Source: a bacterium
Lineage (GTDB): Bacteria > CG03
Direction of reading: 5' to 3'
Assembly (NCBI GenBank): GCA_043825615.1
Contig: JBDRRS010000003.1
Location: 56,090-120,089 of the forward strand
Length of the DNA: 64,000 bases
The position numbers and the translations under genes were made by a program. The notes under the pieces are model-generated. The model searched no databases. It was not told the DNA's origin and saw nothing but the letters and a program-made list of their open reading frames with translations. Positions 1 through 37,309 of the stretch are shown here, one piece after another. Every line of letters starts with the position of its first letter. The stretch's first letter is position 1.

Positions 1-513
1 TCCTCTCTGATTCATCTTCAGTTTGTCAACATCCATCCTTTCAGGGACGGCAACGGCAGATGCGCAAGAGCGCTGGCGTCATGGGAATTATTCAGAAGGG
101 GCTTTGACTCCCTGCATATTTTTTCGATTGATGAGGTTCTGCTTGAAAACAGGACTCTTTATATTAAAAACCTTCAGAGAGTTCAACTTGAAAAGTATCC
201 GCTTGGGGCGTGGCTGGAATTTATGTCGGAAACAATACTGGAAACGCTTGAGCGCGTTTACAGTCGTATGATGTCAATAGGGATTGCTACCGAGACGCCT
301 GTTTCTATCACTATAAAACAGGAAAAACTTTTGCGAATTATTCAGGAACGGGGAATAATGGGTATTCGTGATATAGCGCGGGCGATTAGAACAACCGTTC
401 CCGGCGCTCACTATGTTCTTAAACCTCTTATCAGATACGGGGTAATCGTCAGAGTCGGACAGTACAAAAATGCTAAATATGCAGTCCCCTCCGCAATTAA
501 GATTTCCAAATAA
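1..513 (+). CDS. Fic/DOC family protein, C-terminal part (5' end outside window) with winged-helix-like tail
   Basis: Frame 1 is open from nt 1 and runs into the listed ORF 223..513. Nt 34-69 translate to HPFRDGNGRCAR, matching the Fic motif HxFx(D/E)GNGRxxR. The tail KLLRIIQERGIMGIRDIARAI looks like a wHTH. Confidence 0.75.
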   Translation, partial: SSLIHLQFVNIHPFRDGNGRCARALASWELFRRGFDSLHIFSIDEVLLENRTLYIKNLQRVQLEKYPLGAWLEFMSETILETLERVYSRMMSIGIATETPVSITIKQEKLLRIIQERGIMGIRDIARAIRTTVPGAHYVLKPLIRYGVIVRVGQYKNAKYAVPSAIKISK

Positions 514-526
514 TGAAAATTAAAAT

Positions 527-3301
527 TTGTCGGCACTGCAAAACCGAACTAATTTTTGCTCAGTTATGGCGGCTAAGATAAAAAAAGTTTTCTTTGCTAT
601 TTTGTTTTTTTCTTTCCTCCCATACGGCATTACTGCAAATGAAGGTTCTCTGACAAGAACTCTTAAAGGGCATACCGGATGGGTGTTGTCGGTTGCATTT
701 TCGCCGGACGGGAAATATCTTGCCTCAGGAAGTGGTGATGGAACAATAAAACTCTGGCGTGTTTCAGACGGCAAATTAATTAGAACTTTTAAAGGTCATG
801 CTAACAAGGTGGTTTCAGTTTCATTTTCTCCCGATGGGAAACTGATTGCCTCTGGAAGTTGGGATTGTACAATAAAAATCTGGCATGTTTCAAAGGGTTC
901 TCTAATCAGAACGCTTAAAGGGCATACCGGATATGTAAACTCAGTATCATTTTCACCTGATGGAAAATATCTTGCATCAGGAAGTGAAGATAAAACAATA
1001 AAAATCTGGCGGACTTCTGATGGCTCTCTCATAAGAACAGTTAAAGGACACATATCCCCTGTGAATTCAGTATCATTTTCACCTGATGGTAAATACTTTG
1101 CATCAGGAAGTGAAGATAAAACAATAAAAATCTGGTCGGCTTTCGACGGTTTTCTCATAGGAACGCTTATAGGACACACAGATTACGTGAGATCGCTATC
1201 ATTTTCACCTGACGGGAAATATATTGCATCAGGAAGTGATGTGTTAGATAATACAATAAAAATCTGGCGCGTCTCGGATGATTCTCTAATAAGAACGCTT
1301 AAAGGGCATACAGGGAAAGTTTATTCAGTATCATTTTCGCCTGATGGAAAATTTCTTGTCTCTGGAAGTCAGGATGAAACAATAAAAGTTTGGCGCATCT
1401 CTAATGGGACATTGATAGAAACGCTCAAAGGACATACATTTAAAGTGTGGTCAGTATCATTTTCACCAGATGGGAAATATCTTGCCTCGGGAAGTTGGAG
1501 AGCGATAAAAATCTGGCTTACACCATGGGAGAAAGAAAAAAGGGACACTGAAGAAGGAGTTGTTAGAGCAATTCAAGAAGCATCGAGACTGATGGAAGAA
1601 CAAGAAATTAAAGCTGCGCATAAAAGAAATGCGGAAAGAAAGGAGAAAGAAAAAAATGAATATCTTAATGCGTTTAACGGGTTATATCTGATTGGGAATC
1701 CAAGGATTGAAATTTTTGCCGGTTCAAAAGAAAATATAGAAATTAAGTTAAATAATGAATCATCGCAGAATTTCAGAGACATTACGGTAAAATGTTCCAT
1801 TTCGCAATCTTCACCTTATATTGAATATAAATCAAAAGAAAAATTAAATGAATTAAAATACGGAGAAGGGAAAAAATTGATTTTTCCGGTTTCTGTCCAG
1901 TGGCATGCAAAGGAAGATAATCTGCATTTTAATTTTGAAATGACGGAGAACCGGTATAATTTTTTCAGAAATTTTTCCATCCCTGTTGAAATAAAGAGAA
2001 GGGAGCCCATTTTCGAAATTCTGGATATAAAAATTGATGATTCTTCAACAGCGGAGACATGGGGTGACGGGGATGGTATCATAGAAAAAGGAGAACGGGT
2101 AAAAATGTCCGTTATGATTGTCAATAATGGAAAAGGCGCAGGAATGTCAAGTGCGTTTCATCTTTTAACAGCGCATCCTCATATAGAAATAACAAAAGGA
2201 AAAGAGGAAAAGGATGATATTCTGCCAGGAGAGAAAAAAGTTACTGAATTCGTACTTTCTCTTGACGCTGGCTATATTGGTCCGAAAGTTCTCCCCCTTT
2301 TATTAAAAATAACCGGCGATTTTGAAGAAAAAATTATTCCTCTAAAATTAAGTTATCGCAGGATATTTTCTGAAAATATAATTATTGTTGTTCTCGGTGC
2401 ATTACTTTTAATTTTTTCCATAGTATTTTTTATCAGGCAAAAAACTGATAAGAAAGAAATTAAACCTGTTCAGACAAAAGGTACAATCTCTGCAGGAATA
2501 CGCTCACAAGGGGATGTATTTGATAAATATGAAATTATTCGCGAGAGGGGTAGAGGCGGAATGGGAATTGTTTATGAGGCGATGAATAAAAAACTTGGCA
2601 AAAAAATCGCTCTGAAAAAAATGAAAGAGGAACTTGCAATAAATCCGAGGGAAAGAGAAAGGTTTTTAATGGAAGCGAGAAGAGTGGCAGTGTTACAACA
2701 TCCCCATATTGTTGATATTTACGACATTATTGAGGAGAAAAATAATATCTATCTTATTTTTGAATTTGTTGAAGGGAGAACAATAGAATGGCATTTAAAT
2801 GAGAAAGGGAAATTCATATTATCAAGGACGATAGAAATAACTAAACAAATATGTGAGGCACTGGATTATGCCCACGGGCATAAAATAATTCACAGAGATA
2901 TGACGACATCAAACATTATGATTTGTCACAATGGCAGAGTAAAGGTAATGGATTTCGGAATAGCAAGAGAGGCGAAGAATACTTTTTCACGGTTAACAGG
3001 AAAGGACACATCCGGCACTCTCGCTTATATGGCTCCCGAGCAGGAATTAGGAAGTTATGATGTGCAGTCGGACATATTTTCCGTCGGTGTTTGTTTTTAT
3101 GAGATGCTTGCAGGTGAACTGCCTTACAAAGGTCCGAACTTCTATTTGCAGAAAACAAAAATGTCATATAGAAAAATCAGAGAAATCAATCCTGAAATTC
3201 CGCAGGAAATTGAATCAATAATTGAAAAATGTCTCCAGCCGGAAAAAGAAAATAGATATAATACGGTTGAAGATTTGATTACAGAACTCAAAAAAATATG
3301 A
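527..3301 (+). CDS. Receptor-like protein: signal peptide, 7 WD40 blades, coiled coil, beta-rich middle domain, TM helix, C-terminal Ser/Thr kinase-like domain
   Basis: Seven GH..V.SVSFSPDGKYLASGS.D.TIKIW repeats (about nt 644-1532). TM helix IIIVVLGALLLIFSIVFFI. Kinase motifs GRGGMGIVY, ALKKMK, HRDMTTSN (nt 2891-2914), DFG, APE. The true start may be the internal MAAKIKK. Confidence 0.85.
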   Translation: MSALQNRTNFCSVMAAKIKKVFFAILFFSFLPYGITANEGSLTRTLKGHTGWVLSVAFSPDGKYLASGSGDGTIKLWRVSDGKLIRTFKGHANKVVSVSFSPDGKLIASGSWDCTIKIWHVSKGSLIRTLKGHTGYVNSVSFSPDGKYLASGSEDKTIKIWRTSDGSLIRTVKGHISPVNSVSFSPDGKYFASGSEDKTIKIWSAFDGFLIGTLIGHTDYVRSLSFSPDGKYIASGSDVLDNTIKIWRVSDDSLIRTLKGHTGKVYSVSFSPDGKFLVSGSQDETIKVWRISNGTLIETLKGHTFKVWSVSFSPDGKYLASGSWRAIKIWLTPWEKEKRDTEEGVVRAIQEASRLMEEQEIKAAHKRNAERKEKEKNEYLNAFNGLYLIGNPRIEIFAGSKENIEIKLNNESSQNFRDITVKCSISQSSPYIEYKSKEKLNELKYGEGKKLIFPVSVQWHAKEDNLHFNFEMTENRYNFFRNFSIPVEIKRREPIFEILDIKIDDSSTAETWGDGDGIIEKGERVKMSVMIVNNGKGAGMSSAFHLLTAHPHIEITKGKEEKDDILPGEKKVTEFVLSLDAGYIGPKVLPLLLKITGDFEEKIIPLKLSYRRIFSENIIIVVLGALLLIFSIVFFIRQKTDKKEIKPVQTKGTISAGIRSQGDVFDKYEIIRERGRGGMGIVYEAMNKKLGKKIALKKMKEELAINPRERERFLMEARRVAVLQHPHIVDIYDIIEEKNNIYLIFEFVEGRTIEWHLNEKGKFILSRTIEITKQICEALDYAHGHKIIHRDMTTSNIMICHNGRVKVMDFGIAREAKNTFSRLTGKDTSGTLAYMAPEQELGSYDVQSDIFSVGVCFYEMLAGELPYKGPNFYLQKTKMSYRKIREINPEIPQEIESIIEKCLQPEKENRYNTVEDLITELKKI

Positions 3302-4029
3302 AAGTAAAAATATGTCCGCAGTGTAAAACAGAAAATAGAGCCGAGGCAAGGTTTTGCAAAAACTGCGGCAACCGCTTTAAAATAATTGCGCTTATTCTTT
3401 TTATTACCGCAATTGCCGGTGCAGTGTATTATTTTTCAGATATTTCTGGACGATCGCGGCTCAATAATGAGCTCCGGTGGTATGGTGGTGATAAATATAT
3501 TCTTAAGGTAAAAGAAACAGTAAAAGGCTGGTTTGTGGAAGGAGACCTTGTTCCCCTATTAGAGATTACCAAAAAGGAAAGTCCGCCTCCAAAGCAGGCA
3601 GGAAAAATTAATTTTAACCAAAAACTTTATGAACAACATTTTGCGCAGGGTAAAAAAGAAGCGGAAAAAGGAAACTGGAATGAGGCAATGAAATCATACA
3701 GGAAATCTCTCCTATATAAGCCGCATGATAAGAAAGCAGAGAATGAACTGAAATTTGTCCGAGATGTTTGGCAGAGAAGAGAATTAAAGAAGGGGGAAGA
3801 AGAAGCGAAAAAAACTCTTGAGAGAGTAGAAGATAAAGAAAAATATGCAAGTCGCGTGGAAAGAATCGAAAATCTGAAAAGGCAATATTATAGCCGAGGA
3901 TTAAATCTATACCAGGCAAAAAAATATGAGGAAGCAATAAAAACGTTCAGGAAACTGCTTATGCTGGAACCTGCTCACCCGCAGGCGCTTTATATAATCA
4001 AAAAATGCGAAGATGCCCTTGGGATATAG
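3298..4029 (+). CDS. Zinc-ribbon / single TM / TPR-like repeat protein
   Basis: N-terminal CPQC...CKNC zinc ribbon, hydrophobic helix IIALILFITAIAGAVYYF, and TPR-like segments (GNWNEAMKSYRKSLLYKP, KKYEEAIKTFRKLLMLEP). Its ATGA start/stop overlaps the upstream kinase gene. Confidence 0.6.
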   Translation: MKVKICPQCKTENRAEARFCKNCGNRFKIIALILFITAIAGAVYYFSDISGRSRLNNELRWYGGDKYILKVKETVKGWFVEGDLVPLLEITKKESPPPKQAGKINFNQKLYEQHFAQGKKEAEKGNWNEAMKSYRKSLLYKPHDKKAENELKFVRDVWQRRELKKGEEEAKKTLERVEDKEKYASRVERIENLKRQYYSRGLNLYQAKKYEEAIKTFRKLLMLEPAHPQALYIIKKCEDALGI

Positions 4030-4082
4030 AAAAAATAGGGCCGGAGGAAATTAACATCCGATGGGTATTAATAAAATTTGAC

Positions 4083-4111
4083 TTGACTGATATTATAGAA
4101 ATCTATATAAT
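4083..4111 (+). promoter_or_regulatory. Sigma70-like promoter candidate (TTGACT, 17 nt, TATAAT)
   Basis: TTGACT at 4083-4088, a 17-nt spacer, then TATAAT at 4106-4111. It lies 37 nt upstream of the ATPase ORF start at 4148. Confidence 0.4.
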
Positions 4112-4147
4112 TAGTCGGGTTGATATTAAAGGAAAAAAGATTAATAG

Positions 4148-5539
4148 ATGAAAAGAATTTATTTTAGAACACTGGACCTGAATGGATTTTGGAACAGGGA
4201 AGAGCACATTGATTTTAATATGGAATCAATAATTCCGAGATTTAAGATAAAAAAAATATTAAGCAGATTAGAAGAAAAAAACATTGAAATAATCACAGGA
4301 CCGAGACAGACGGGAAAAACAACGTTGCTGTATCTCATCATAAAGGATATATTGAAAAACAGGAAAAACCATAAGAGATTATTCTACGTAAATCTTGATA
4401 CGATTGTAAATTACGAACTATTTGAAAACCCCTATTTATTTTATGAAAATATCAAAAGGTCATTTGCCGATGATAAAGGCGTAAATTATCTTTTTATAGA
4501 CGAAGTTCAGAGATTAAGAAATCCGGGACAGTTTTTGAAAGGGATATATGACTTAAAAAAGAACATAAAAATAATTGTTACGGGCTCTTCCTCTCTTGAA
4601 ATAAAATCCAAGACAAAAGAATTTTTAACCGGCAGAAAAAGGGAAACGACATTATTACCGGTTTCATTTTCGGAGTATATTGATTCGGGGAGGAAAATTC
4701 CGGAAGATTTGAAATCACTAAAAATAAATAACAAAACATTGTCATTATGGGCGGATAATGAGTTGCTTTACGGTAAATACCTTTCAGACAAATTGGAATA
4801 TATGCAGCTTTACGGAGGATATCCCGCGGCGCTGACTAAAAAAAATTATGAACAGAGGATTGAAGAACTATCGGAAATATTCAATTCATACATAAAAAAG
4901 GATGTTGTTGATTTTTTAAAAGTTGAACGCATTGATATTTATGACAAATTGATTAAAGTGGCAGCCACGCAAATAGGTAATATGATGAATTTTTCTGAAT
5001 TGTGCTCCCTTGTGCAGGGTAATTTAATAACCGTAACTAAATATTTAAGCATTCTTGAAAAAACTTTCATAACTTATTATTTAAAACCGTTCACCTCTAA
5101 AAAAAGGAATGAGGTCAAACATGCAACCAAATGTTATTTTATTGATACTGGCCTGCGAAATTTTGCCATAAGGCAGTTTAATAAAACCGATACGAGGATG
5201 GATTCAGGAGCATTGCTCGAGAATATTCTTTTAGCTGAAAATTTAAAGAAACAGAAATTAGACGAAGAGATATTTTACTGGAGAACAAAAGCAGGAGCGG
5301 AAATAGATTGTGTTATAAAAAAGCAGGGGAGAATTATTCCGATAGAAATAAAGTCGGGAAAAATAAAAATTGGAGCGCTTACCAAAAGTTTCCATTCTTT
5401 TATTAATTCATTTTCACCTGAAAAAGCCATATTTATCAATAAGGATAAGTTCGGAATAATGAAAATACACAGGACGAGAGTTTATTATATTCCTGCTAAA
5501 TGGTTTCTTTTATACGGTTTAAATTTAATAGGAGAATAA
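4148..5539 (+). CDS. COG1373-type ATPase (AAA_14 N-terminal domain plus DUF4143 C-terminal domain)
   Basis: Walker A GPRQTGKTTLL and Walker B-like LFIDEVQ. The C-terminal part reads WRTKAGAEIDCVIKK...IPIEIKSG, an E-x-D ... E-x-K nuclease-like pattern. Confidence 0.8.
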   Translation: MKRIYFRTLDLNGFWNREEHIDFNMESIIPRFKIKKILSRLEEKNIEIITGPRQTGKTTLLYLIIKDILKNRKNHKRLFYVNLDTIVNYELFENPYLFYENIKRSFADDKGVNYLFIDEVQRLRNPGQFLKGIYDLKKNIKIIVTGSSSLEIKSKTKEFLTGRKRETTLLPVSFSEYIDSGRKIPEDLKSLKINNKTLSLWADNELLYGKYLSDKLEYMQLYGGYPAALTKKNYEQRIEELSEIFNSYIKKDVVDFLKVERIDIYDKLIKVAATQIGNMMNFSELCSLVQGNLITVTKYLSILEKTFITYYLKPFTSKKRNEVKHATKCYFIDTGLRNFAIRQFNKTDTRMDSGALLENILLAENLKKQKLDEEIFYWRTKAGAEIDCVIKKQGRIIPIEIKSGKIKIGALTKSFHSFINSFSPEKAIFINKDKFGIMKIHRTRVYYIPAKWFLLYGLNLIGE

Positions 5540-5555
5540 AAACTCATAAGAATTT

Positions 5556-6830
5556 ATGAAAGTAAAAATCTGTCCGCAGTGCAAGACGGAAAATAGAGCC
5601 GAGGCGGTATTCTGCAAGAACTGCAGAAAAACATTAAAGTTATCTGTAGCGGTGCGATTTATCGCGCTTGGTTTTTTTATTAGCGCTATTGTCGGAGCGG
5701 GCTGGTATTTTTATTCAATAATAAATATCTCCGGTCGAGCAAATGCAAAAATAAAGGAAGCGGAAAAAATTAGGCAGACACTCCCAAAATTCCGTGAAGG
5801 AAAGCATCCTGCTGGTTATTTAAGGGAACAGTATGAAGCGTGGAAATCTCTTCGTTTAGCAAAAGAAACTTATGTTGCAGGGAATTATGCAGCGTCATTA
5901 AAATATGCAAAAAGTGCAATTCAAAAGGCAAAGAAATTAGATGAAACTGCACGCCTTGAATCGGATATAAAATATGGCCGCTGGTTTGTGGAAGGAGAGG
6001 AGAACCTAAAAAAAGCAGAAAAAACCGTAGCAGCAGAGCTTGCTCTGCCTTTATACCGGAGGACACTGGAATGTTTTGAAAAAGTGTTGAATTGCCGCCC
6101 GGATGATTCTGCTTCAAAAGAAAAAATTGAATTTTGTAAAAATAAAATTTATGAGCTACTTTTTATTCAAGGAAAAAATTATGCGGAAAAAGGAAACTGG
6201 GAGGATGCGATAACGTCATATCAGGAAGCATTGAAATACAAGCCGGGCGACAGCAAAGCGGAGAACGAGCTGAAATTTGTAACGTCAAAGAAAATTGATG
6301 ACTCTATTTCCAAAGGAAAAAGATACCTCAATCAAAAAAAATATTCGGACGCGGTGGATGAATTTCAGAAAGCAGTAAATCTCGGAGCATCAGGAGAAGT
6401 AATAGGATTATTGGCGGAAGCGAAGAAGAAGAAGAGGAAGTGGGTGGTACAGAAGGGCGAATGGAGTATAATTGACGATGACCTTGTAATTGTAGGTATC
6501 GGAGGAGGTGATTACCTGATGTGGCCAAGAAACAAATACAGGGCCGGATGCAACAATAATGGAGAATTAAACTGGTCGTCAGCTATGTCCTGGGCGCGGG
6601 ATTTGGTTTATAATGGCTATGACGACTGGCGTCTGCCGACAAAAGATGAACTAAAACAACTCTATGATTATGGGAAGACATATATTACTTACTCATCTTC
6701 TTGGTATTGGTCTTCGTCTGCTCACGCTAGGACCAATTTTACATGGTACGTGTATTTCGGCAATGGCTACGTGGGCTACGTCAATAAGACCGATAGCGGC
6801 TATGTTCGTCCGGTGCGTGGATGCCCGTGA
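5556..6830 (+). CDS. Zinc-ribbon / TM / TPR-like protein with C-terminal DUF1566 (Lcl C-terminal, C-type-lectin-like) domain
   Basis: The N-terminus MKVKICPQCKTENRAEAVFCKNC is nearly identical to that of ORF 3298. It has a TM helix and TPR-like segments. The C-terminus (DDWRLPTKDELKQLY ... GYVRPVRG) is typical of DUF1566. Confidence 0.7.
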   Translation: MKVKICPQCKTENRAEAVFCKNCRKTLKLSVAVRFIALGFFISAIVGAGWYFYSIINISGRANAKIKEAEKIRQTLPKFREGKHPAGYLREQYEAWKSLRLAKETYVAGNYAASLKYAKSAIQKAKKLDETARLESDIKYGRWFVEGEENLKKAEKTVAAELALPLYRRTLECFEKVLNCRPDDSASKEKIEFCKNKIYELLFIQGKNYAEKGNWEDAITSYQEALKYKPGDSKAENELKFVTSKKIDDSISKGKRYLNQKKYSDAVDEFQKAVNLGASGEVIGLLAEAKKKKRKWVVQKGEWSIIDDDLVIVGIGGGDYLMWPRNKYRAGCNNNGELNWSSAMSWARDLVYNGYDDWRLPTKDELKQLYDYGKTYITYSSSWYWSSSAHARTNFTWYVYFGNGYVGYVNKTDSGYVRPVRGCP

Positions 6831-6948
6831 GTATTGATTATTTGATTATTTCCTGCCGAAAGGCAGTGTGGATTTATGAATAAGATTTAGAAAATATGAG
6901 AAACGAAAAATCAGAATTAATAATATCTTTTGAAGAAGGGAGAAAATT

Positions 6949-7947
6949 ATGATATGTCCGGAATGTAAAAAAGAAGTTCCTGAAGGGGAATTCTGTGACC
7001 TTTGCGGAGCAAAATTAGAATCGGCAGGAAAAAGTACGCTCACTTCCGCCCCTGTGCAAAAGCCGTCATCTGAGAGTATATTAAAAGAAAAATATGAGAT
7101 TTTAAGAGAAATCGGGCGAGGGGGAATGGGGATTGTTTATGAGGCGGTGAACAAAAAACTTGGGAAAAAAGTTGCTCTGAAAAAGATGAAAGAGGAACTT
7201 GCAATAAATCCAAGAGAGAAGGAGAGATTTTTGAAAGAAGCAAGGAGAGTTGCCGAACTTCATCATCCGCGCATTGTTGACATTTACGATATTGTTGAAG
7301 AAGAAATCCCCTCACCTAACCTCTCCCCTGAGGGGAGAGGAAAAAGAGAGGGCGGGATTTATCTTGTGTTTGAGTTTGTGGACGGAAGAACAATTGAGCA
7401 GATGCTTAATTCAGGAATGAAATTCAAAGTTAATGAGGCGGTGAAAATAATCAAGCAGGTCTGCGAAGCGCTTGAATATGCTCACGGTAAAAAAATTATA
7501 CACAGAGATGTGAAACCCTCAAACATAATTGTTTGCCCCTCACCTGACCTCTCCCCGAAGGGGAGAGGAATGATGGTAAAAGTGATGGATTTCGGAATTG
7601 CAAGAGAAGCAAAGAATACGTATTCAAGATTAACCGGAAAGGATACATCGGGCACGTTGGCTTATATGGCTCCCGAGCAGGAACTGGGAAGTTATGATGT
7701 GCAGTCGGACATATTTTCGGTTGGAGTATGCTTGTATGAAATGCTCACAGGGGAACTGCCTTACAAGGGTCCAAACTTCTATTTGCAGAAAGAAAAGATG
7801 TCATATAGAAAAATCAGGGAAATCAATCCCGAAATCCCTCAGGGTATTGAATCAATAATTGAGAAATGCCTTCAGCCGGAAAAAGAAAATAGATATCAGT
7901 CGGTGGCGGAATTGATTGATCAAATAGCGGATTTGAAAGATGCTTAG
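6949..7947 (+). CDS. Zinc-ribbon Ser/Thr protein kinase (soluble)
   Basis: N-terminal CPEC...CDLC ribbon. Kinase motifs GRGGMGIVY, ALKKMK, HRDVKPSN (nt 7501-7524), DFG, APE. It is roughly 85% identical by eye to the kinase domain of ORF 527..3301. Confidence 0.85.
   Translation: MICPECKKEVPEGEFCDLCGAKLESAGKSTLTSAPVQKPSSESILKEKYEILREIGRGGMGIVYEAVNKKLGKKVALKKMKEELAINPREKERFLKEARRVAELHHPRIVDIYDIVEEEIPSPNLSPEGRGKREGGIYLVFEFVDGRTIEQMLNSGMKFKVNEAVKIIKQVCEALEYAHGKKIIHRDVKPSNIIVCPSPDLSPKGRGMMVKVMDFGIAREAKNTYSRLTGKDTSGTLAYMAPEQELGSYDVQSDIFSVGVCLYEMLTGELPYKGPNFYLQKEKMSYRKIREINPEIPQGIESIIEKCLQPEKENRYQSVAELIDQIADLKDA
7308..7340. repeat. 33-nt palindromic element, copy 1, in frame inside the kinase gene
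   Basis: Sequence cccctcacctaaCCTCTCCCCtgaGGGGAGAGG. It has a 9-bp perfect stem (7320-7328 / 7332-7340) and translates as PSPNLSPEGRG. It is absent from the paralogous kinase. Confidence 0.65.
7536..7568. repeat. 33-nt palindromic element, copy 2, in frame inside the kinase gene
   Basis: Sequence cccctcacctgaCCTCTCCCCgaaGGGGAGAGG. The stem is 7548-7556 / 7560-7568 and it translates as PSPDLSPKGRG. It is absent from the paralogous kinase. Confidence 0.65.
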
Positions 7948-10477
7948 AATGAAGAAAGACAGGCTGTTCGTAATTGACGGCAACAATTATCTGCACAGGG
8001 CGTATCACGCCCTCCCGCCGCTCACCACGAAGGACGGACGTCCCGTCGGTGCGCTGTACGGTTTTGTCAGAATGATTCTGTCTCTTGTAAAAAAGGAAAC
8101 GCCGGAGTATCTGCTCACGGTTTTCGACACACCCGCGCCGACTTTCAGGCACAGGGAATTTCCGCAGTACAAGGCGACGCGTCCCAAGCCGGAAGATGCG
8201 CTTGTCTTTCAATTGAAAAATATGAGAGAAATCGTTAACCTGCTCGGGGTAAAGACGTTTGAGGCGCCCGGCTTTGAAGCGGATGACATTATGGCGAGTG
8301 TTTGCGGAAAATTTTTGGGGAAGGTAAAGATATTCATTCTGTCCGCCGACAAGGATGTTTCGCAGATTGTCGGTAAAGAAGTCCTGATATACAATGAAAT
8401 GAAAAACCTCGTTATGGGTGAGGCGGAAATCATGCGGAAGTACGGCGTGAGCCCTTCAAAATTTTGCGACTGGCTCGCTCTCACGGGGGATTCCTCCGAC
8501 AACATTCCCGGCGCAAAAGGGATAGGCCCGAAGAGTGCGACGAAACTGCTCGGTTCTTTCTCGGGCGTGGAGGAAATTTACGAAAAGATTGACGAAATTC
8601 CCGCGAACCTCAGAGACAAACTCCTTGAAAGCAGGGAAAATGTTTTTCTTTCGAAAAAACTGGTCACTCTTCTGAAAGACGTTCCGCTGGACTTTGCTCT
8701 TGATGACCTGTCTTTCAGTTTGGATGCGGAGAAGGTGAAGAGCGTCGCCGAAAAGTGGGAGTTTTCTTCACTCCTCCGCAAAGATGACTCTTCCGGGACA
8801 AGCAAAGTTTTTGAGAAAATAAAATATACCGATGACCTTGCCGCGTTTTCCGCCTCCGAAAAAATGGCGGTAAGGTTTGTCAGTTCAAAAGACACAACCG
8901 GCTTTGCGGCGACCGACGGGAAGAACGCGGTTTTTATTCCGACCCTGCAGAGTGAGTTTGATTTCGGAGGAGGTAAAATAGAAGCATTTTTGAAAGTTTT
9001 ATCCCGCGGCGGCTTTTCCGTCGTAACAAATGACGCCAAGCATCTCTGCAAGTTCGCATTATCCAAAAAGCGGGAGCCCGCAGGTCCTTTTGAAGATATT
9101 TCGCTTATGGGGTATGTGCTTGATTCGGGTCCTTCGCAGGACATTTTTAACCTCTCAAGAAAATATCTCGGCGAGGAACTTCCCGCGGCGGTCGGCGAAA
9201 AGGAACAGGCGAAAATAACGGCGCAGTGTTTCAAACTGCGGGAAGTTCTGAAAGAGGAACTCTCAAAGAAGGGTCTGAAATTTTTATACGAGGAAATAGA
9301 ACTTCCTCTGGCGCGGGTCCTCGCGGAAATGGAACTGTGGGGCGTGAAACTTGACTGCGGGATTCTTGAAGAACTTTCCGCCGAAATGGCGGGAGAAATT
9401 ACAGCGGTACAGAAGACAATATTTTCTCTCGCAGGCGTTACATTTAACATAAATTCACAAATTGAAATGAGACGGGTACTCTTTGAAAAACTGAAACTTC
9501 CGGTGAAAAAACAGAAAAAAACCGGCGCGTCCGTCGACGCTTATGTCCTCAGGGAACTTTCGGCTTTTCACCCTATTTGCAGTGAAATAATAAAATACAG
9601 AACTCTCTCAAAATTGAAATCAACTTATGTGGATGCTCTGCCGCGCCTGGTGGCCGGCGACAACCGGCTCCACACCGATTTCAATTCGACGGGAACTCTT
9701 ACAGGGCGTCTTTCTTCCTCAAACCCGAACCTGCAAAACATTCCCGTCAGAGGCGAGTTCGCCTTCAAGATCCGTTCCGCATTCGTAGCGGAAGAAGGCT
9801 GCGTTCTGATTTCGGCTGATTACTCGCAGATTGATTTGAGAGCGCTTGCGCATTTTAGCGGCGACGAGCGGCTCCTGAAGGCATTCAGGGAGAACGATGA
9901 CATCCATAATTTTACCGCTTCGCTGGTCTTTGGCGTCGGAAGAAAAGATATTACGGGAGAGCAGCGCCGTATTGCGAAGACAGTGAATTTCGGCATTGTT
10001 TACGGAATGTCATCATACGGGCTTTCCGCCGACCTGGGTATTTCGAAAAATGAAGCCAAAAAAATTATAGACAATTACTGGATGATTTTTCCGGAAGTGA
10101 AGAACTATGTCGAAAAAAGCATTGAGGACGCGAAAAGGCATGGTTTTACGGAAACGCTTTTTAAGCGCCGACGGCCCATTTACGGGCGTTCGCCTTTTGA
10201 GCAGCGCGTTGCGGTGAACACGCCGATTCAGGGGACGTCCTCCGACATAATAAAAAAAGCAATGGTTGATATTTTTCCCATTCTTAAAGATTACGGGGCG
10301 AAAATGATTCTGCAGATTCACGATGAACTTCTTTTTGAAGTGGAGAATGACAAGTCATTGAAATTTGCTAAAATTGCGAAAACGACCATGGAAAAAGCCG
10401 TCGAATTAAAAGTCCCCGTAAAGGTAAATGTTAAATCGGGCAGGAATTTTGCCGGGATGGAAGCGCTGAATGTTTAA
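7940..10477 (+). CDS. polA: DNA polymerase I
   Basis: N-terminal 5'-nuclease domain (LFVIDGNNYLHRAYHAL). Pol motifs DYSQIDLRALAH, RRIAKTVNFGIVYG, QIHDELLFE. An alternative start lies at 7949. Confidence 0.95.
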   Translation: MLRMKKDRLFVIDGNNYLHRAYHALPPLTTKDGRPVGALYGFVRMILSLVKKETPEYLLTVFDTPAPTFRHREFPQYKATRPKPEDALVFQLKNMREIVNLLGVKTFEAPGFEADDIMASVCGKFLGKVKIFILSADKDVSQIVGKEVLIYNEMKNLVMGEAEIMRKYGVSPSKFCDWLALTGDSSDNIPGAKGIGPKSATKLLGSFSGVEEIYEKIDEIPANLRDKLLESRENVFLSKKLVTLLKDVPLDFALDDLSFSLDAEKVKSVAEKWEFSSLLRKDDSSGTSKVFEKIKYTDDLAAFSASEKMAVRFVSSKDTTGFAATDGKNAVFIPTLQSEFDFGGGKIEAFLKVLSRGGFSVVTNDAKHLCKFALSKKREPAGPFEDISLMGYVLDSGPSQDIFNLSRKYLGEELPAAVGEKEQAKITAQCFKLREVLKEELSKKGLKFLYEEIELPLARVLAEMELWGVKLDCGILEELSAEMAGEITAVQKTIFSLAGVTFNINSQIEMRRVLFEKLKLPVKKQKKTGASVDAYVLRELSAFHPICSEIIKYRTLSKLKSTYVDALPRLVAGDNRLHTDFNSTGTLTGRLSSSNPNLQNIPVRGEFAFKIRSAFVAEEGCVLISADYSQIDLRALAHFSGDERLLKAFRENDDIHNFTASLVFGVGRKDITGEQRRIAKTVNFGIVYGMSSYGLSADLGISKNEAKKIIDNYWMIFPEVKNYVEKSIEDAKRHGFTETLFKRRRPIYGRSPFEQRVAVNTPIQGTSSDIIKKAMVDIFPILKDYGAKMILQIHDELLFEVENDKSLKFAKIAKTTMEKAVELKVPVKVNVKSGRNFAGMEALNV

Positions 10478-11676: not shown

Positions 11677-12408
11677 ATGAAAATAGGCGTTTTTGCGGAC
11701 ATTCACGCGAATCTGCCTGCTTTCGGGAAAGTTATTGAATTCCTTAAAAGTAAAGTCGGCGGTTTTGTCTGCTGCGGTGATATTGTCGGTTACGGGCCCC
11801 ATCCGAACGAGTGTATTGAAATGCTGCAGGGTCTTCAAAATACTTACATCGTTTGCGGGAACCATGACCTGGCGGTTATAGGCGCCGGGGATGCCGGAAC
11901 ATTCAGTGAAGACGCCGCCGCGGCGGTAGAGTGGACGATGGGAAAATTAACGGATTCATCCCGTTCCTTTCTGTCCGGCCTTGAGCGCAAAATCACCGTT
12001 GATAATTTTACCGCTGTTCACGGCTCTCTGATTGACCCTATCAAGCAGTATGTGACGGGCATTCCGGATTATATTCCTTCGCTCAGGGCGCAGGAAAAAG
12101 GGCTTGTTTTTAACGGCCACACCCACAGGCCGCTTTATTTCCGTGCTGCGGAGGAAACCGTAAGTTCGGGGTTCTTTAATCCCGGTTCTCCCGTTAAAAT
12201 TTCGGACGGGTCAAAATACTTTATCAACGCCGGCGCCGTCGGTCAGCCCAGAGACGGAGACCCGCGCGCCTCCTGCGTAATTTACGACGGGGATGCTGGA
12301 ACGGTTACGCTTTACCGCCTGGAGTATGATATAAAGAGTACGCAGAATGATATGAGGAAAACGGACAGCCCGCTGTTTTTGATTGAGCGGCTCGGAGCAG
12401 GAGTATGA
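11677..12408 (+). CDS. Metallophosphoesterase (YfcE/MJ0936-like)
   Basis: Motifs MKIGVFADIHAN, CCGDIVGYGP, GNHD and GHTH. Confidence 0.8.
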   Translation: MKIGVFADIHANLPAFGKVIEFLKSKVGGFVCCGDIVGYGPHPNECIEMLQGLQNTYIVCGNHDLAVIGAGDAGTFSEDAAAAVEWTMGKLTDSSRSFLSGLERKITVDNFTAVHGSLIDPIKQYVTGIPDYIPSLRAQEKGLVFNGHTHRPLYFRAAEETVSSGFFNPGSPVKISDGSKYFINAGAVGQPRDGDPRASCVIYDGDAGTVTLYRLEYDIKSTQNDMRKTDSPLFLIERLGAGV

Positions 12409-12992
12409 TTAAACCGGGAACGGTTGTTGGCGGGCAGCCGGAGTTCTGCGGCGCGGGCGCGACTCTTGCGGAGTTAATGGCGCGGGACAAATGGCTTGAA
12501 GTAAAAAGCGCCTGTAAAATAATAATGCAGGTTCTCGAAGTTCTTGCTCATATGCATTCGCGCGGGGTCATACTTCAAAACCTGAACCCGGAAAACATTA
12601 TTGTCTCAGGGAAGGGGGGCATAAAATTTGCTGATTTAGATTCGGCATATTATTTTGAAGCAGGAGCCGTCTCGCCGCCGGGCGCGCCCGGCGCGGTGGA
12701 ATATATGAGCCCGCAGAAGTTTTACGGCGACGTTTCAACCGAAAGCGATGTTTTTTCTGCGGGAGTCCTTTTTTACCGGCTCCTCACCGGCCATTTCCCG
12801 TACGCCCCGAGCGAAATTATTTCATACCCCGAAGCCGCCGCAAAGCCGCATCCTGTATCCCATTATAACAAAAGCGTTCCTCCGCCGCTGGAAAATGTGA
12901 TTATGAAGGCAGTCGCTCTTAAGAAGAAGGACAGATTCCCGACGGCGAAAAGTTTTATATCAGCGCTTTTAAAAACAGGAGCGGTCAAATGA
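12405..12992 (+). CDS. Protein-kinase C-lobe-only protein (predicted pseudokinase)
   Basis: It aligns to a Hanks kinase from the hinge onward. The catalytic loop is LQNLNPEN (nt 12573-12596) instead of HRDLKPEN. DLD replaces DFG and SPQ replaces APE. No P-loop or VAIK region is present. The start overlaps the upstream stop by 4 nt. Confidence 0.6.
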   Translation: MIKPGTVVGGQPEFCGAGATLAELMARDKWLEVKSACKIIMQVLEVLAHMHSRGVILQNLNPENIIVSGKGGIKFADLDSAYYFEAGAVSPPGAPGAVEYMSPQKFYGDVSTESDVFSAGVLFYRLLTGHFPYAPSEIISYPEAAAKPHPVSHYNKSVPPPLENVIMKAVALKKKDRFPTAKSFISALLKTGAVK

Positions 12993-14152
12993 ACTGCCGG
13001 CTGTTTGTCCCCTTTCTTTTTTGTGTGATTTTGTTTTTTTCTGCAACGTTGTCCGCAGACGATTTGATGAAAGCGTCGAAAGAATTTGTCCGCGGAAATT
13101 TTGCGGCGGCGGAAAAGAACATCAGCGAGTATCTGGAAAAAAATCCCGAAGATAAAAAAGCGCAAAATATTTATCAGAAAATCTGCATAGAACTTTCAAA
13201 GAAATCGCTTGACGGCGGTGACGAAGAGACAGCCCGCTCCTATGCCGAGAAAGCGTACAAGGTCAATCCGGATAATGCGAAAGCCCGCGACCTTTATCTT
13301 GCGACAAAAAAAGTCGAGAAAGTAAAGGTCACCCCGGAAAAGATTGAAGCCGAAAAAGTTAAAGTCAGAAAACAGAAACTTGAATCTCCGGATTTCGAGC
13401 GTCGCCAGGAAGTTAAAACGAAGATAGAATATGAAACCAAAACGGAATACGTCACGAAGGAGATGATACAGCAGGTTGCGGAAATTCCGGACTGGATATG
13501 GTTGAGCATTGCTTTCAACGCCGTTTTGCTCGTGGGGGTTTACCTGATTTACAAATATAAGAAAAAGGGCAATAAAACTGTCTACGAGCAGTATCTCAGG
13601 ACTAAAATGCAACTTACTAATTATTTGAAAAACGACCCTGAGGCGGTGAAAAAACAGTTGGGCGACGAGCGCGCCGCCGAAATGTTTAAGCTTCTTTCAA
13701 CCCAGAAAGTGCCCGATAGCGTCAACATAAAATTTGTTGATGCAAACAGGGCTTTTACGGATATAAATCCCATCCCGCGGCTTACAGCCGATATGGTGGA
13801 ACTCTCCGAATACTTCCTGACCGACCCGAAAGAGATTGTCAAATTTTTGACACCGTTCCTTCAACACAAGAACAACCGTGCACGCGCTAACGCGGCGAAG
13901 GCAATTTATAAATACAAGCCGGTACTGGCAATGAATACGATAAAAAAGATGGCTGAATCGGAGGACAGGTGGGAAAAAATTTCAGCCGTGTGGGCTTGTT
14001 CCCAGTTAAACGACGGCGCCGCGGCGGCAATTTTGGAGCGTCTCGTCGCGGATAATGACATGGAAGTTTCGCTCGCCGCCACACAGGCATGTAACGCTAA
14101 AAAAGTGGCAAATGTTTTCAAGAAAAAAAATGACGGAAAAAGAACGGCTTAA
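12989..14152 (+). CDS. Bitopic protein: signal peptide, TPR-like region, K/E-rich coil, TM helix, C-terminal HEAT-like repeats
   Basis: TPR-like segments GNFAAAEKNISEYLEKNPED and ARSYAEKAYKVNPDNAKA. TM helix WIWLSIAFNAVLLVGVYLIY. HEAT-like segments NNRARANAAKAIYKY, DRWEKISAVWACSQL and DNDMEVSLAATQA. Confidence 0.55.
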   Translation: MNCRLFVPFLFCVILFFSATLSADDLMKASKEFVRGNFAAAEKNISEYLEKNPEDKKAQNIYQKICIELSKKSLDGGDEETARSYAEKAYKVNPDNAKARDLYLATKKVEKVKVTPEKIEAEKVKVRKQKLESPDFERRQEVKTKIEYETKTEYVTKEMIQQVAEIPDWIWLSIAFNAVLLVGVYLIYKYKKKGNKTVYEQYLRTKMQLTNYLKNDPEAVKKQLGDERAAEMFKLLSTQKVPDSVNIKFVDANRAFTDINPIPRLTADMVELSEYFLTDPKEIVKFLTPFLQHKNNRARANAAKAIYKYKPVLAMNTIKKMAESEDRWEKISAVWACSQLNDGAAAAILERLVADNDMEVSLAATQACNAKKVANVFKKKNDGKRTA

Positions 14153-20070: not shown

Positions 20071-20823
20071 ATGTATTTTGCGAAATTACTCCTGATATTC
20101 TTCGCCGGTGTTTGCGCGGGTTTTATCAACGTGTTCGCCGGCGGCGGGTCGTTGCTCACAATCCCTCTGTTGATTTTTATGGGAATGCCGTCTGCGGTAG
20201 CCAACGGAACAAACCGGCTTGCGGTATTAGTCCAGTGCGCTTTAGGCGTTGAGCGCTTCCGCCGCAAAGGCGTATTTGATTACAAGTTAGGTCTTCTCGT
20301 CGCTTTCCCTTCCGTAACGGGAGCCGTAATCGGCTCATTCATCGCCGTTGATTTACCAGACCGTATTTTCAATCGTCTTCTCGCCGTTGTTATGATTTTC
20401 GTTTTAATTTCAATCCTCGGAAAAACTCCTGAGAATAACACAAGCGTTAAGAAAGAGCCGGCCGCCCGGAGAAAAATAATTCTTGCCGTTGCTTTCTTTT
20501 TTGTGGGGCTGTACGGGGGAATCATCCAGGCGGGTGTGGGAATTGTTATTATCGCTATCCTGTCGTTTCTGACAGACCTTTCCCTCGTTAAGATAAACAG
20601 TTTAAAATTATTTATTGTCGCTTTTTATATGATTTTTTCCGTCGCTGTTTTTGCTTCCAGCGGCAAGATTGAATGGGCGCCCGGATTGGTTCTGGCTGCA
20701 GGGAATGCCGCCGGCGCGTGGATGGGGGTAAATGTTACGGTTAAAAAAGGCGACAGGTTTATAAGAGCAGTTCTCGCGGTTGTTATTCCGGCAATAGCGG
20801 TCAAACTCCTCTTTTTCATGTAA
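20071..20823 (+). CDS. TauE/SafE family anion exporter membrane protein
   Basis: Polytopic membrane protein with GGGSLLTIPLLIF and a second half-repeat GVGIVIIAIL. Confidence 0.75.
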   Translation: MYFAKLLLIFFAGVCAGFINVFAGGGSLLTIPLLIFMGMPSAVANGTNRLAVLVQCALGVERFRRKGVFDYKLGLLVAFPSVTGAVIGSFIAVDLPDRIFNRLLAVVMIFVLISILGKTPENNTSVKKEPAARRKIILAVAFFFVGLYGGIIQAGVGIVIIAILSFLTDLSLVKINSLKLFIVAFYMIFSVAVFASSGKIEWAPGLVLAAGNAAGAWMGVNVTVKKGDRFIRAVLAVVIPAIAVKLLFFM

Positions 20824-37137: not shown

Positions 37138-37213
37138 GGGTTTCTTAAATTCAGTAACCCGCATTCTGCGGTTATTAACGTCAAACAAAATATTTTGTAT
37201 CATTGGCACGGTT

Positions 37214-37287: not shown

Positions 37288-37309
37288 AAAACATTTGGTA
37301 TTTTTTTAT

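What the first reader, a model, noticed from the sequence alone, without database searches (positions are those of the whole stretch)
1..7947. Low-GC accessory block: Fic, WD40 receptor kinase, two zinc-ribbon/TPR membrane proteins, COG1373 ATPase-nuclease and zinc-ribbon kinase, a candidate undescribed signalling or conflict system
Six co-oriented, tightly spaced genes form a block whose composition differs from the housekeeping genes that follow. My hand count of one sampled 60-nt line gives 23/60 G+C at 601-660 and 27/60 at 8041-8100, and later housekeeping lines are much higher. Several features make the combination unusual:
- It pairs an AMPylator-type Fic protein (HPFRDGNGRCAR) with two paralogous Hanks kinases.
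- Three proteins begin with the same kind of short CxxC...CxxC zinc ribbon.
- Two of the proteins have periplasmic TPR ectodomains, and one ends in a lectin-like DUF1566 domain.
- An ATPase with a PD-(D/E)xK-like C-terminus sits in the middle, behind its own near-consensus promoter.
- The block ends with an 8-nt overlap onto polA.

Repeat-domain sensors (WD40, TPR), kinases, Fic and ATPase-nucleases are recurring parts of bacterial conflict and defence systems. I do not recognise this particular arrangement as a described system.
Basis: partly seen in the sequence, partly recalled or inferred. Interest (0 to 1): 0.75.

Follow-up and report, generated by a model that had tools for sequence, protein, structure and literature searches.

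The report
Mosaic accessory island upstream of polA
The low-GC block is a real, strain-specific accessory island, but it is a patchwork of separate parts (a Fic enzyme, a self-contained ATPase-nuclease cassette, two membrane kinase/zinc-ribbon sensor pairs) and not one new six-gene system.

Summary
Positions 1-7947 carry six co-oriented genes with GC 0.37, against 0.47 for the rest of the window, and every domain call was confirmed. The "one undescribed system" reading is only partly supported.

- **The block is dispensable.** A sister MAG with 99.6% identical polA has uvrA-dedA directly abutting polA and none of the block.
- **The ATPase-nuclease is autonomous.** Three more distant relatives carry only this cassette (AAA_14+DUF4143, PADLOC candidate PDC-S01) at the same dedA|polA site, with its promoter. 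Its synonymous divergence (dS about 0.33) is half or less that of the flanking core genes (0.58-1.1), and dN/dS is 0.11. Homologs 49-53% identical sit alone among metabolic genes.
- **Fic looks separate.** It is SoFic-like and is absent from every related kinase cluster.
- **One pairing does recur.** Hanks kinases of one lineage-specific family sit next to small zinc-ribbon proteins, most of them membrane-anchored (TPR, Lcl_C, PEGA, TM2). In relatives these usually come with an FHA protein and an unknown ~480-aa protein, both missing from this window.

Best reading: a hotspot island that mixes defence-type single genes with a partial receptor-kinase signalling module. Interest is moderate.

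The parts
1..513 (+). C-terminal half of a SoFic-like Fic AMP-transferase: Fic core motif HPFRDGNGRCAR plus a C-terminal winged helix-turn-helix. The N-terminus lies outside the window.
   Evidence: Translation. Pfam Fic 1.4e-8 and HTH_24. PADLOC SoFic 3.3e-26, profile positions 185-357 of 361. Aligns to SoFic structures 3EQX/3ZCN, residues 190-356.
513..581 (+). Truncated, out-of-frame stub of a type-A zinc-ribbon gene (MKIKICRHCKTELIFAQLWRLR*). Its ATG overlaps the Fic stop (TAATG). It is a scar of a rearrangement.
   Evidence: Repeat family D5. Sequence read. Comparable stubs lie at the junctions in L090 and L091.
566..3301 (+). Receptor-type Hanks kinase, 911 aa. In order: signal peptide, seven-blade WD40 propeller with very similar repeats, about 270 aa with no family match, one TM helix (residues 605-623), cytoplasmic kinase. 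The catalytic loop reads HRDMTTSN, so the conserved Lys is lost.
   Evidence: Pfam WD40 8.9e-100 and Pkinase 1e-54. NCBI start at 566. TM prediction. Repeat list. Alignment A3. No Pfam hit in the middle region. dN/dS 0.10 against ORF6.
3298..4029 (+). Type-A zinc ribbon (cytoplasmic), one TM helix (residues 29-47), and an extracytoplasmic TPR domain. Proposed co-receptor or adaptor.
   Evidence: Pfam Zn_ribbon_3 and TPR_2. TM prediction. Paralogy with ORF5.
4077..4147 (+). Left end of the autonomous ATPase-nuclease cassette, with its own promoter TTGACT-17-TATAAT (4083-4111).
   Evidence: Promoter scan, 11 of 12. Similarity to L090/L091/L092 begins at 4077-4079.
4148..5539 (+). AAA_14 + DUF4143 (COG1373) AAA+ ATPase fused to a PD-(D/E)xK nuclease-like domain. 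Matches the PADLOC single-gene defence candidate PDC-S01.
   Evidence: Pfam. PADLOC PDC-S01 1.2e-87. Walker A/B and E385, D387, E400, K402 invariant in 40 homologs. AF2 model pLDDT 92, closest folds 2FNA, ORC/Cdc6, RFC, Apaf-1. Stands alone in L090, L091, L092 and L094-L098. dS 0.33 and dN/dS 0.11.
5556..6830 (+). Type-A zinc ribbon, TM helix, extracytoplasmic TPR, and a C-terminal Lcl_C (DUF1566) lectin-like domain. Its first 18-40 nt travel with the ATPase cassette in relatives.
   Evidence: Pfam Lcl_C 1.6e-20 and TPR_2. TM prediction. 41% identical ortholog in L001. Only 4 full-length homologs found. Stubs in relatives.
6949..7947 (+). Soluble kinase with an N-terminal type-B zinc ribbon and canonical catalytic residues (HRDVKPSN, DFG). 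A 91% nt-identical ortholog in L093 has a different downstream neighbour.
   Evidence: Pfam Pkinase 1.5e-54. Alignment A3. L093. No TM helix.
7308..7342 (+). 35-nt GC-rich palindromic element inserted in frame in the kinase beta4-beta5 loop (encodes ..PSPNLSPEGRG..).
   Evidence: Repeats D16/I5. Pattern search: 2 hits against 0.01 expected. Absent from paralogs. Kept in L093.
7536..7570 (+). Second copy of the same palindromic element, inserted in frame just before the DFG motif (encodes ..PSPDLSPKGRG..).
7948..7951 (+). Right boundary of the island. Similarity to the block-free sister genome begins exactly at the polA start codon (ATG 7949).
   Evidence: blastn L005 against the window. Junction alignment. 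NCBI polA product of 842 aa.

Best explanation
Positions 1-7947 are a strain-variable accessory island. In relatives the same site, immediately upstream of polA, is the junction between a dedA/VTT membrane-protein gene and polA. The genome is an uncultivated, deep-branching bacterium. The island is a mosaic of at least three functionally separate units.

1. **A SoFic-like Fic AMP-transferase.** It is a single-gene unit.
2. **An autonomous AAA_14+DUF4143 cassette (PDC-S01 type) with its own promoter.** It most likely acts alone as an ATP-dependent nuclease of the defence or selfish-gene kind. It moves between lineages by recombination.
3. **Two pairs from a lineage-specific expanded family.** Each pair is a Hanks Ser/Thr kinase and a small protein with a cytoplasmic zinc ribbon, one TM helix and a TPR (with or without Lcl_C) ectodomain.

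Inferred mechanism for unit 3:
- The extracytoplasmic WD40 propeller, TPR and lectin-like domains sense an envelope or surface cue.
- The zinc-ribbon heads and the catalytically weakened WD40 receptor kinase (HRDMTTSN) act as membrane scaffolds.
- These scaffolds engage the soluble, catalytically intact zinc-ribbon kinase.
- That kinase phosphorylates an output partner. The partner is not encoded here; in relatives it is probably the ~670-aa FHA protein.

Shown: modularity, dispensability, lateral history, domain content, topology prediction, and recurrence of the kinase + zinc-ribbon pairing. Inferred: every binding and phosphorylation step, and any defence role.
For: **Dispensability**
- L005 (polA 99.6% nt identical) has uvrA-dedA-polA with 1 nt between dedA and polA and no block. 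Similarity to the window starts at 7950.
- GC3 is 0.29-0.44 in the block and 0.53-0.58 in core genes.

**Autonomy of the ATPase cassette**
- L090, L091 and L092 carry only window 4077-5573/5595 at this site, with the promoter included.
- Its dS is 0.33-0.36, against 0.58-1.1 for polA and amidase. Its dN/dS is 0.11.
- Homologs 49-53% identical are solitary among metabolic genes.
- A second copy, 23% identical, lies at 60137-61312.
- The family occurs on 494 plasmids.
- The literature treats PDC-S01 as a widespread single-gene candidate (PMC12988326).

**Kinase + zinc-ribbon pairing**
- L001 has three zinc-ribbon membrane proteins (TPR-Lcl_C, PEGA, DZR) among its kinases.
- L085-L087 have a ZnR-TM2 protein directly upstream of a zinc-ribbon kinase.
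- L002 has a small zinc-ribbon protein after a zinc-ribbon kinase.
- Three zinc-ribbon-start ORFs lie in the 8-kb block, against one (at 33587) in the other 56 kb.
- The type-A zinc ribbon is far better conserved than the rest of these proteins.

**Family expansion**
- A third paralog, P0007, on the same contig has a polytopic membrane N-terminus.
- All intact ORFs are under purifying selection.
Against: - AAA_14/DUF4143 genes also sit directly beside kinases of this family in L001 and L088, and a PF01637 ATPase does so in L002. A functional link between such ATPases and the kinase clusters is therefore not excluded.
  - These ATPases are only 25-28% identical to ORF4 and to each other.
  - The family is dense in this lineage, so chance adjacency is plausible but unquantified.
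- The relatives that carry only the ATPase keep a decayed zinc-ribbon stub downstream. The ATPase/zinc-ribbon adjacency is therefore old.
- What lies upstream of Fic is unknown, because the window edge cuts it.
- No interaction, phosphorylation or defence activity was tested.
- The partner proteins seen in relatives (FHA, the ~480-aa protein) are absent from the window, so the module may be incomplete or may work with genes elsewhere.
Confidence: 0.68

Rival explanations
1. All six genes form one integrated, undescribed conflict or signalling system. Sensors (WD40, TPR, Lcl_C) would feed kinases that control Fic and the ATPase-nuclease as effectors.
For: The genes are co-oriented and tightly spaced. 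The part types are typical of conflict systems. Kinase/ATPase adjacency recurs in L001 and L088.
Against: - The cassette has its own promoter and stands alone in three relatives, with a younger history than its flanks.
- Closer homologs of the ATPase have no kinases nearby.
- Fic is absent from all related kinase clusters.
- The ORF6 ortholog in L093 has a different downstream neighbour.
- GC3 varies within the block, from 0.29 to 0.44, which suggests several sources.
Confidence: 0.07
2. The kinases and zinc-ribbon sensors regulate the AAA_14/DUF4143 ATPase-nuclease, as a phospho-controlled nuclease effector. Fic is a bystander. The alleles that carry only the ATPase are degenerate leftovers.
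For: - Three different AAA_14/DUF4143 genes lie next to kinases of this family: window, L001 and L088.
- L001 and L088 place it in the same slot, between a kinase and the ~480-aa/FHA gene pair.
- A zinc-ribbon stub remains beside the ATPase in L090 and L091.
Against: - The stand-alone copies are intact, with dN/dS 0.11.
- L085-L087 have the same kinase/FHA core without any ATPase.
- The ATPases are not orthologous to each other (25-28% identity).
- The family is abundant in this lineage. There are 2 copies in this 64-kb window, and another lies beside polA in L016.
Confidence: 0.13
3. The block is conserved core synteny for housekeeping envelope or cell-division signalling (PknB-like), and its low GC only reflects amino-acid composition.
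For: polA, an amidase and dprA-topA-xerC lie downstream. Receptor Hanks kinases often regulate the cell wall (general knowledge).
Against: - The block is absent from the 99.6%-identical sister genome and from three other relatives.
- The GC deficit is at third codon positions.
Confidence: 0.02
4. The block is an assembly chimera or decaying debris with no function.
For: - MAG contigs can be chimeric.
- The sister MAG's contig ends 3.5 kb upstream of polA.
- Stubs, and a core kinase gene split in two, occur in the region.
Against: - The ATPase + zinc-ribbon stub + polA junction is seen independently in three other metagenomes.
- All six ORFs are intact.
- dN/dS is 0.10-0.15 for the ATPase, for ORF6 against L093, and for ORF2 against ORF6.
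Confidence: 0.05

Closest known systems
PDC-S01 (PADLOC single-gene phage-defence candidate; AAA_14 + DUF4143, COG1373)
   Same: ORF4 has the same two-domain architecture. It matches the profile strongly (1.2e-87). Walker motifs and the D..ExK residues are invariant. It behaves as a single, laterally moving gene. DUF4143 is classed in the PD-(D/E)xK superfamily (PMC3424549).
   Different: No defence activity has been shown for this family; validation is pending (PMC12988326). Here the gene is embedded between kinase and zinc-ribbon genes.
SoFic (Fic-domain single-gene defence protein; structures 3EQX, 3ZCN)
   Same: The Fic core motif HPFRDGNGRCAR is intact and there is a C-terminal winged helix. 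The fragment aligns to the C-terminal half of SoFic.
   Different: Only 170 residues are visible. The N-terminal half, with any inhibitory helix, is outside the window. Sequence similarity to solved SoFic is low (E = 2.5e-4).
Receptor-type Hanks Ser/Thr kinase signalling clusters with FHA and phosphatase partners (PknB/PstP/FhaA type)
   Same: There is a single-pass receptor kinase with an extracytoplasmic sensor domain. Paralogous kinases are clustered. Related loci carry FHA proteins and Metallophos phosphatases.
   Different: The sensor is a WD40 propeller, not PASTA. The partners are zinc-ribbon-anchored TPR/Lcl_C proteins. The genes are accessory, not core. No FHA or phosphatase gene lies in the block.
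Esr epibiont-sensing pathway of Actinomycetes (Wang et al., bioRxiv 2026, PMC13622651), with the vWA-MoxR conflict systems of Kaur et al. 2020 (PMC7159879)
   Same: An extracellular WD40 beta-propeller sensor is linked to Ser/Thr kinases. Relatives have FHA proteins, and one related kinase locus also has caspase-like and trypsin-like proteases. The location is in the flexible genome, next to defence-type genes.
   Different: No MoxR, vWA, transglutaminase or FHA output gene is present here. The propeller is fused to the kinase in one polypeptide. The phylum and envelope type are different. Membership is not established; this is an analogy only.
PD-T4-6 and Stk2 kinase-based anti-phage proteins
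   Same: Both kinases hit the PD-T4-6 profiles at 1e-75 to 1e-78.
   Different: The hits are generic for Hanks kinases. A core-genome kinase fragment (12405-12992) also hits at 2e-32 over half a domain. Domain architectures differ.

Membership tests
PDC-S01 / COG1373 (AAA_14 + DUF4143) | N-terminal AAA_14 P-loop ATPase with intact Walker A and B motifs | tested here: met
   Pfam AAA_14 5.6e-33. G51, K57, T58 and D118, E119 are invariant in 40 homologs.
PDC-S01 / COG1373 (AAA_14 + DUF4143) | C-terminal DUF4143 domain with PD-(D/E)xK-type residues | tested here: met
   Pfam DUF4143 2.2e-35. E385, D387, E400 and K402 are invariant. Superfamily assignment in PMC3424549.
PDC-S01 / COG1373 (AAA_14 + DUF4143) | Match to the PADLOC family profiles | tested here: met
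   PDLC04789, 1.2e-87 over residues 29-435.
PDC-S01 / COG1373 (AAA_14 + DUF4143) | Works as a single gene with no obligatory partner | tested here: met
   It stands alone at dedA|polA in L090, L091 and L092, and among metabolic genes in L094-L098. dN/dS is 0.11.
PDC-S01 / COG1373 (AAA_14 + DUF4143) | Protects against phage | not testable with these tools
   The family is also unvalidated in the literature (PMC12988326).
SoFic-type Fic protein | Fic core motif HxFx(D/E)GNGRxxR | tested here: met
   HPFRDGNGRCAR at residues 12-23 of the fragment. Pfam Fic 1.4e-8.
SoFic-type Fic protein | C-terminal winged-helix domain, collinear with SoFic | tested here: met
   PADLOC SoFic 3.3e-26, profile positions 185-357 of 361. 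Aligns to 3EQX residues 190-355. HTH_24.
SoFic-type Fic protein | Full-length protein with the N-terminal half, including the inhibitory helix | not testable with these tools
   The gene is cut by the start of the window. The source contig could not be retrieved.
Hanks-type Ser/Thr protein kinase (active) | Gly-rich loop, VAxK Lys, HRDxKxxN catalytic loop and DFG | tested here: met
   ORF6 has GRGGMG, VALK, HRDVKPSN and DFG. Pkinase 1.5e-54.
Hanks-type Ser/Thr protein kinase (active) | The same catalytic residues in the WD40 receptor kinase (ORF2) | tested here: not met
   The catalytic loop is HRDMTTSN. The Lys conserved in at least 90% of the family is Thr in ORF2 only. The other motifs are present. 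The domain is under purifying selection, so it is probably a weak kinase or a scaffold.
PD-T4-6 / Stk2 kinase defence | Specific match to the family, as opposed to any Hanks kinase | tested here: inconclusive
   Hits are strong, but a core-genome kinase fragment and unrelated cluster kinases hit equally well for their length.
Esr-like / vWA-MoxR conflict signalling | Extracytoplasmic WD40 beta-propeller sensor plus a Ser/Thr kinase | tested here: met
   In ORF2, a signal peptide and seven WD40 repeats lie outside, with a TM helix at 605-623 and the kinase inside.
Esr-like / vWA-MoxR conflict signalling | FHA-domain output protein in the locus | tested here: not met
   No FHA domain in the block. 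tblastn of the relatives' FHA and ~480-aa proteins against the window finds nothing. Both are present in L001, L085-L088 and the P0025 locus.
Esr-like / vWA-MoxR conflict signalling | MoxR AAA+ ATPase and a vWA protein | tested here: not met
   No such domains in any of the six block proteins, nor in the nine further window genes scanned: eight between 7940 and 19446, and the one at 60137-61312. The rest of the window was not scanned.
   None of the neighbourhoods read has the set. The nearest strain lacks all six.

The most novel reading that the evidence does not exclude
The zinc-ribbon-tagged membrane sensors, the WD40 receptor (pseudo)kinase and the soluble zinc-ribbon kinase form an undescribed cell-surface threat-sensing phospho-relay in an uncultivated deep-branching lineage. 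It would be functionally analogous to the Esr pathway of Actinomycetes. It is carried in a genomic hotspot beside single-gene defences, and diversifies by shuffling one kinase cassette and one zinc-ribbon head onto different ectodomains. It may also gate the neighbouring ATPase-nuclease.
Probability: 0.15. Interest if true: 0.65.

Novelty: new variant of a known kind. Interest (0 to 1): 0.33.

Why it matters
- **A clean natural experiment on a very common candidate defence gene.** Four related genomes show three states of one intergenic site: empty, ATPase cassette only, and the full island. This indicates that the PDC-S01-type ATPase-nuclease is a self-sufficient, laterally exchanged unit.
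- **A caution about inferring systems from adjacency.** A tidy, co-oriented gene block built from defence-like parts need not be a single system.
- **A possible new sensor architecture.** The kinase + zinc-ribbon membrane-protein pairing is a small, lineage-specific family. If it senses surface threats, it would extend receptor-kinase immunity-like signalling to a new phylum. That remains inference.

Tried and rejected
- **Source contig.** Exact look-ups of window proteins returned nothing, so the region upstream of Fic stays unknown.
- **Metagenome scan with ORF4.** It found only one 29%-identical relative.
- **polA scan of GTDB genomes.** It gave one same-species MAG, and everything else was 40% identical or less. 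Deeper synteny comparison was impossible.
- **PD-T4-6 membership.** Rejected as uninformative after a control with a core kinase fragment.
- **Transposon-like ends.** No terminal inverted repeats or target duplications were found around the ATPase cassette. The left and right junctions were also read directly.
- **Rfam and tRNA scans.** Nothing in the block. There are two tRNAs at 37.2-37.4 kb.
- **Sequence search of ORF4 against PDB.** No meaningful hit.
- **Structure of the ORF2 middle region.** The single-sequence AlphaFold model had pLDDT 48.7 and was not used. Pfam finds nothing there.
- **Chance adjacency of AAA_14 genes to kinases.** This could only be estimated roughly, because the context look-ups were exhausted.
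- **Literature search for 'AAA_14'.** It returned only noise.
Full report
**1. Observation**

| Gene | Coordinates | Pfam result |
|---|---|---|
| Fic (partial) | 1-513 | Fic motif HPFRDGNGRCAR, then a winged helix |
| ORF2 | 566-3301 | seven WD40 repeats (8.9e-100) and Pkinase (1e-54) |
| ORF3 | 3298-4029 | Zn_ribbon and TPR |
| ORF4 | 4148-5539 | AAA_14 (5.6e-33) and DUF4143 (2.2e-35) |
| ORF5 | 5556-6830 | Zn_ribbon, TPR and Lcl_C/DUF1566 (1.6e-20) |
| ORF6 | 6949-7947 | zinc ribbon and Pkinase (1.5e-54) |

GC is 0.373 in the block and 0.473 in the rest of the window.
- The deficit is at synonymous positions. GC3 is 0.29-0.44 in the block and 0.53-0.58 in polA, amidase, dprA, topA and xerC.
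- The kinase domains of ORF2 and ORF6 are 73% identical.
- ORF3 and ORF5 share a 61% identical zinc-ribbon/TM head and one TPR stretch.
- The promoter TTGACT-17-TATAAT at 4083-4111 is the best match in the region, at 11 of 12 positions.
- Hydrophobicity finds one TM helix in ORF2 (605-623), one each in ORF3 and ORF5 just after the zinc ribbon, and none in ORF4 or ORF6.

Corrections:
- NCBI's own annotation and the relatives place the ORF2 start at 566, giving a signal peptide.
- They place the polA start at 7949, one base after the ORF6 stop. The 8-nt overlap is therefore not real.
- A truncated fourth zinc-ribbon start (MKIKICRHCKTE.., out of frame) lies at 513-581 and overlaps the Fic stop.

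**2. The block is accessory and sits in a hotspot**

A polA-anchored scan of GTDB genomes found one same-species MAG, L005 (JBDRMV010000033.1). Its polA is 99.6% nt identical to the window's. All other polA genes are 40% identical or less.

- L005 aligns with the window at 92-99% from 7950 onward. Upstream it has uvrA and a DedA/VTT membrane protein whose stop is one base from the polA start. None of the block is present.
- The second low-GC patch of the window is a YhcG/DUF1016 nuclease gene at 15209-16252 (PADLOC PDC-S02, 1e-141). It is also missing from L005.
- Low GC therefore marks strain-specific insertions in this genome.

**3. The ATPase-nuclease is an autonomous cassette**

The cluster containing ORF4 led to three further relatives: L090, L091 and L092. 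Their order is uvrA-dedA-AAA_14/DUF4143-polA, with no Fic, kinase or TPR gene in the island.

- The shared DNA is window 4077/4079 to 5573/5595. It includes the promoter and the first 18-40 nt of ORF5. That fragment survives as a decayed zinc-ribbon stub, for example MKIKICPQCKTENMKETRFSKARG.. in L090.
- The cassette is 91-92% nt identical among lineages whose polA is 78-83% identical.
- Its dS is 0.33-0.36, against 0.58-1.1 for polA and amidase. Its dN/dS is 0.11.
- The cassette therefore shares a more recent ancestor than the backbones, and it is kept intact without the kinases.
- Homologs 49-53% identical (P0131, P0153) are solitary genes among metabolic genes.
- A second family member, 23% identical, lies at 60137-61312.
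- Distant members occur on 494 plasmids.
- Walker A/B and E385, D387, E400, K402 are invariant in 40 homologs.
- The AlphaFold model (pLDDT 92) resembles the archaeal AAA+ protein 2FNA, ORC/Cdc6, RFC and Apaf-1.
- DUF4143 is classed as PD-(D/E)xK (PMC3424549). PDC-S01 is described as a very common but unvalidated single-gene candidate (PMC12988326).
- No inverted-repeat ends were found.

**4. What does recur: kinases with zinc-ribbon proteins, most of them membrane-anchored**

Homologs of ORF6 come mostly from Elusimicrobiota MAGs. They often occur several per contig. The neighbourhoods read were:

| Locus | Gene order |
|---|---|
| L001 | TPR-Lcl_C (41% identical to ORF5), kinase, ZnR-PEGA, double zinc ribbon, ZnR-kinase, AAA_14, ~470-aa protein, FHA protein, LamG-kinase, TPR proteins |
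| L085-L087 | TPR- or WD40-kinase, ~480-aa protein, FHA protein, kinase, ZnR-TM2, ZnR-kinase |
| L088 | kinase, AAA_14, Metallophos, ~486-aa protein, FHA protein, WD40 protein, kinase |
| L002 | ZnR-kinase, small zinc-ribbon protein, PF01637 ATPase, Metallophos |
| P0025 locus | WD40-kinases with caspase-like proteases, trypsin and FHA |

- The pairing of a kinase with a small zinc-ribbon protein, usually membrane-anchored, is therefore recurrent.
- The type-A zinc ribbon is much better conserved than the ectodomains.
- The block holds three zinc-ribbon-start ORFs. The other 56 kb of the window hold one.
- The FHA and ~480-aa proteins are conserved at 32-63% identity among relatives. They are absent from the window.
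- ORF5's full architecture has only four homologs in 5.8 billion proteins.
- A 91%-identical ORF6 ortholog (L093) is followed by an unrelated gene.
- A third paralog on the same contig (P0007) has a polytopic membrane N-terminus.
- This is a lineage-specific, shuffling kinase family. The window holds a partial set of it.

**5. The open point**

AAA_14/DUF4143 genes touch kinases in the window, L001 and L088.

- They are only 25-28% identical to one another.
- L085-L087 lack one in the same slot.
- The family is dense in this lineage. There are two copies in this window, and another lies beside polA in the Elusimicrobia locus L016.
- I could not run a background-corrected test because the context look-ups were exhausted. 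I keep a 0.13 rival that the ATPase is functionally tied to the kinases.

**6. Mechanism**

Shown:
- domain content;
- predicted topology;
- modularity;
- lateral history.

Inferred:
- ORF2 is a receptor with an outside WD40 propeller. Its repeats are highly similar, with variation at a few positions.
- Its inside kinase alone in the family has lost the catalytic-loop Lys (HRDMTTSN). It is nonetheless under purifying selection (dN/dS 0.10), so it is likely a weak kinase or a scaffold.
- ORF3 and ORF5 present TPR and lectin-like domains outside and a conserved zinc ribbon inside.
- ORF6 is the soluble, catalytically intact kinase.
- I propose that the membrane proteins recruit or activate ORF6 on an envelope cue. 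The output partner would be encoded elsewhere.
- Fic and ORF4 act independently.

The nearest functional analogy is the Esr epibiont-sensing pathway, which combines an extracellular WD40 sensor, Ser/Thr kinases and an FHA output (PMC13622651). A second analogy is the conflict systems of Kaur et al. (PMC7159879). The MoxR, vWA and FHA components that define those systems are absent here, so membership is not claimed. PD-T4-6 profile hits are generic.

**7. Verdict**

- The island is a mosaic in a dedA|polA hotspot.
- The "one new system" reading is not supported.
- The kinase + zinc-ribbon pairing is a modestly novel variant of Hanks-kinase signalling.
- Interest is 0.33.

Noticed in passing
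window 7308-7342 and 7536-7570: Two copies of a 35-nt GC-rich palindromic element (CCCCTCACCTrACCTCTCCCC-nnn-GGGGAGAGGAA) are inserted in frame in two surface loops of the ORF6 kinase. They are kept in the 91%-identical ortholog L093 and are absent from paralogs ORF2 and P0007. Other family members (P0002, P0003, P0009) carry different Pro/Gly-rich inserts in the same loops. This resembles the in-frame palindromic elements of Rickettsia (from memory, not checked).
   Followed up: partly
window 513-581; L090 7619-7711; L091 about 7415-7432: Truncated 5' stubs of type-A zinc-ribbon genes lie at three separate rearrangement junctions. The conserved zinc-ribbon-coding 5' ends may be preferred breakpoints.
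   Followed up: partly
window 15209-16252: A low-GC (0.29) YhcG/DUF1016 PD-(D/E)xK nuclease gene (PADLOC PDC-S02, 1e-141) is inserted between dprA and topA. It is absent in L005, reduced to a 140-aa remnant in L090, and intact in L091. This is a second hotspot.
   Followed up: partly
window 11677-14152; L090 11511-14171: The core kinase-HEAT gene is one 559-aa ORF in L090. It is split into a 195-aa kinase C-lobe fragment and a 387-aa HEAT/TPR protein in the window, and likewise in L091. Where the window has a Metallophos gene (11677-12408), L090 and L091 have a Y1 transposase-like gene with a DnaA C-terminal domain.
   Followed up: no
window 60137-61312 (- strand): A second AAA_14+DUF4143 gene, 23% identical to ORF4, with GC 0.39. 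The family is multi-copy in this genome.
   Followed up: partly
L016 8256-9383 (- strand): In an unrelated Elusimicrobia MAG, another AAA_14/DUF4143 gene lies about 600 nt upstream of polA. This is either coincidence or a shared preference for this neighbourhood.
   Followed up: no
window 20071-20823: A 250-aa ORF between 19.5 and 20.9 kb has no counterpart in L005. This is another strain-specific gene, and it was not annotated.
   Followed up: no
window 37213-37386: tRNA-Arg(TCT) and tRNA-His(GTG) lie in tandem. They are the only Rfam or ARAGORN hits in the 64-kb window.
   Followed up: yes
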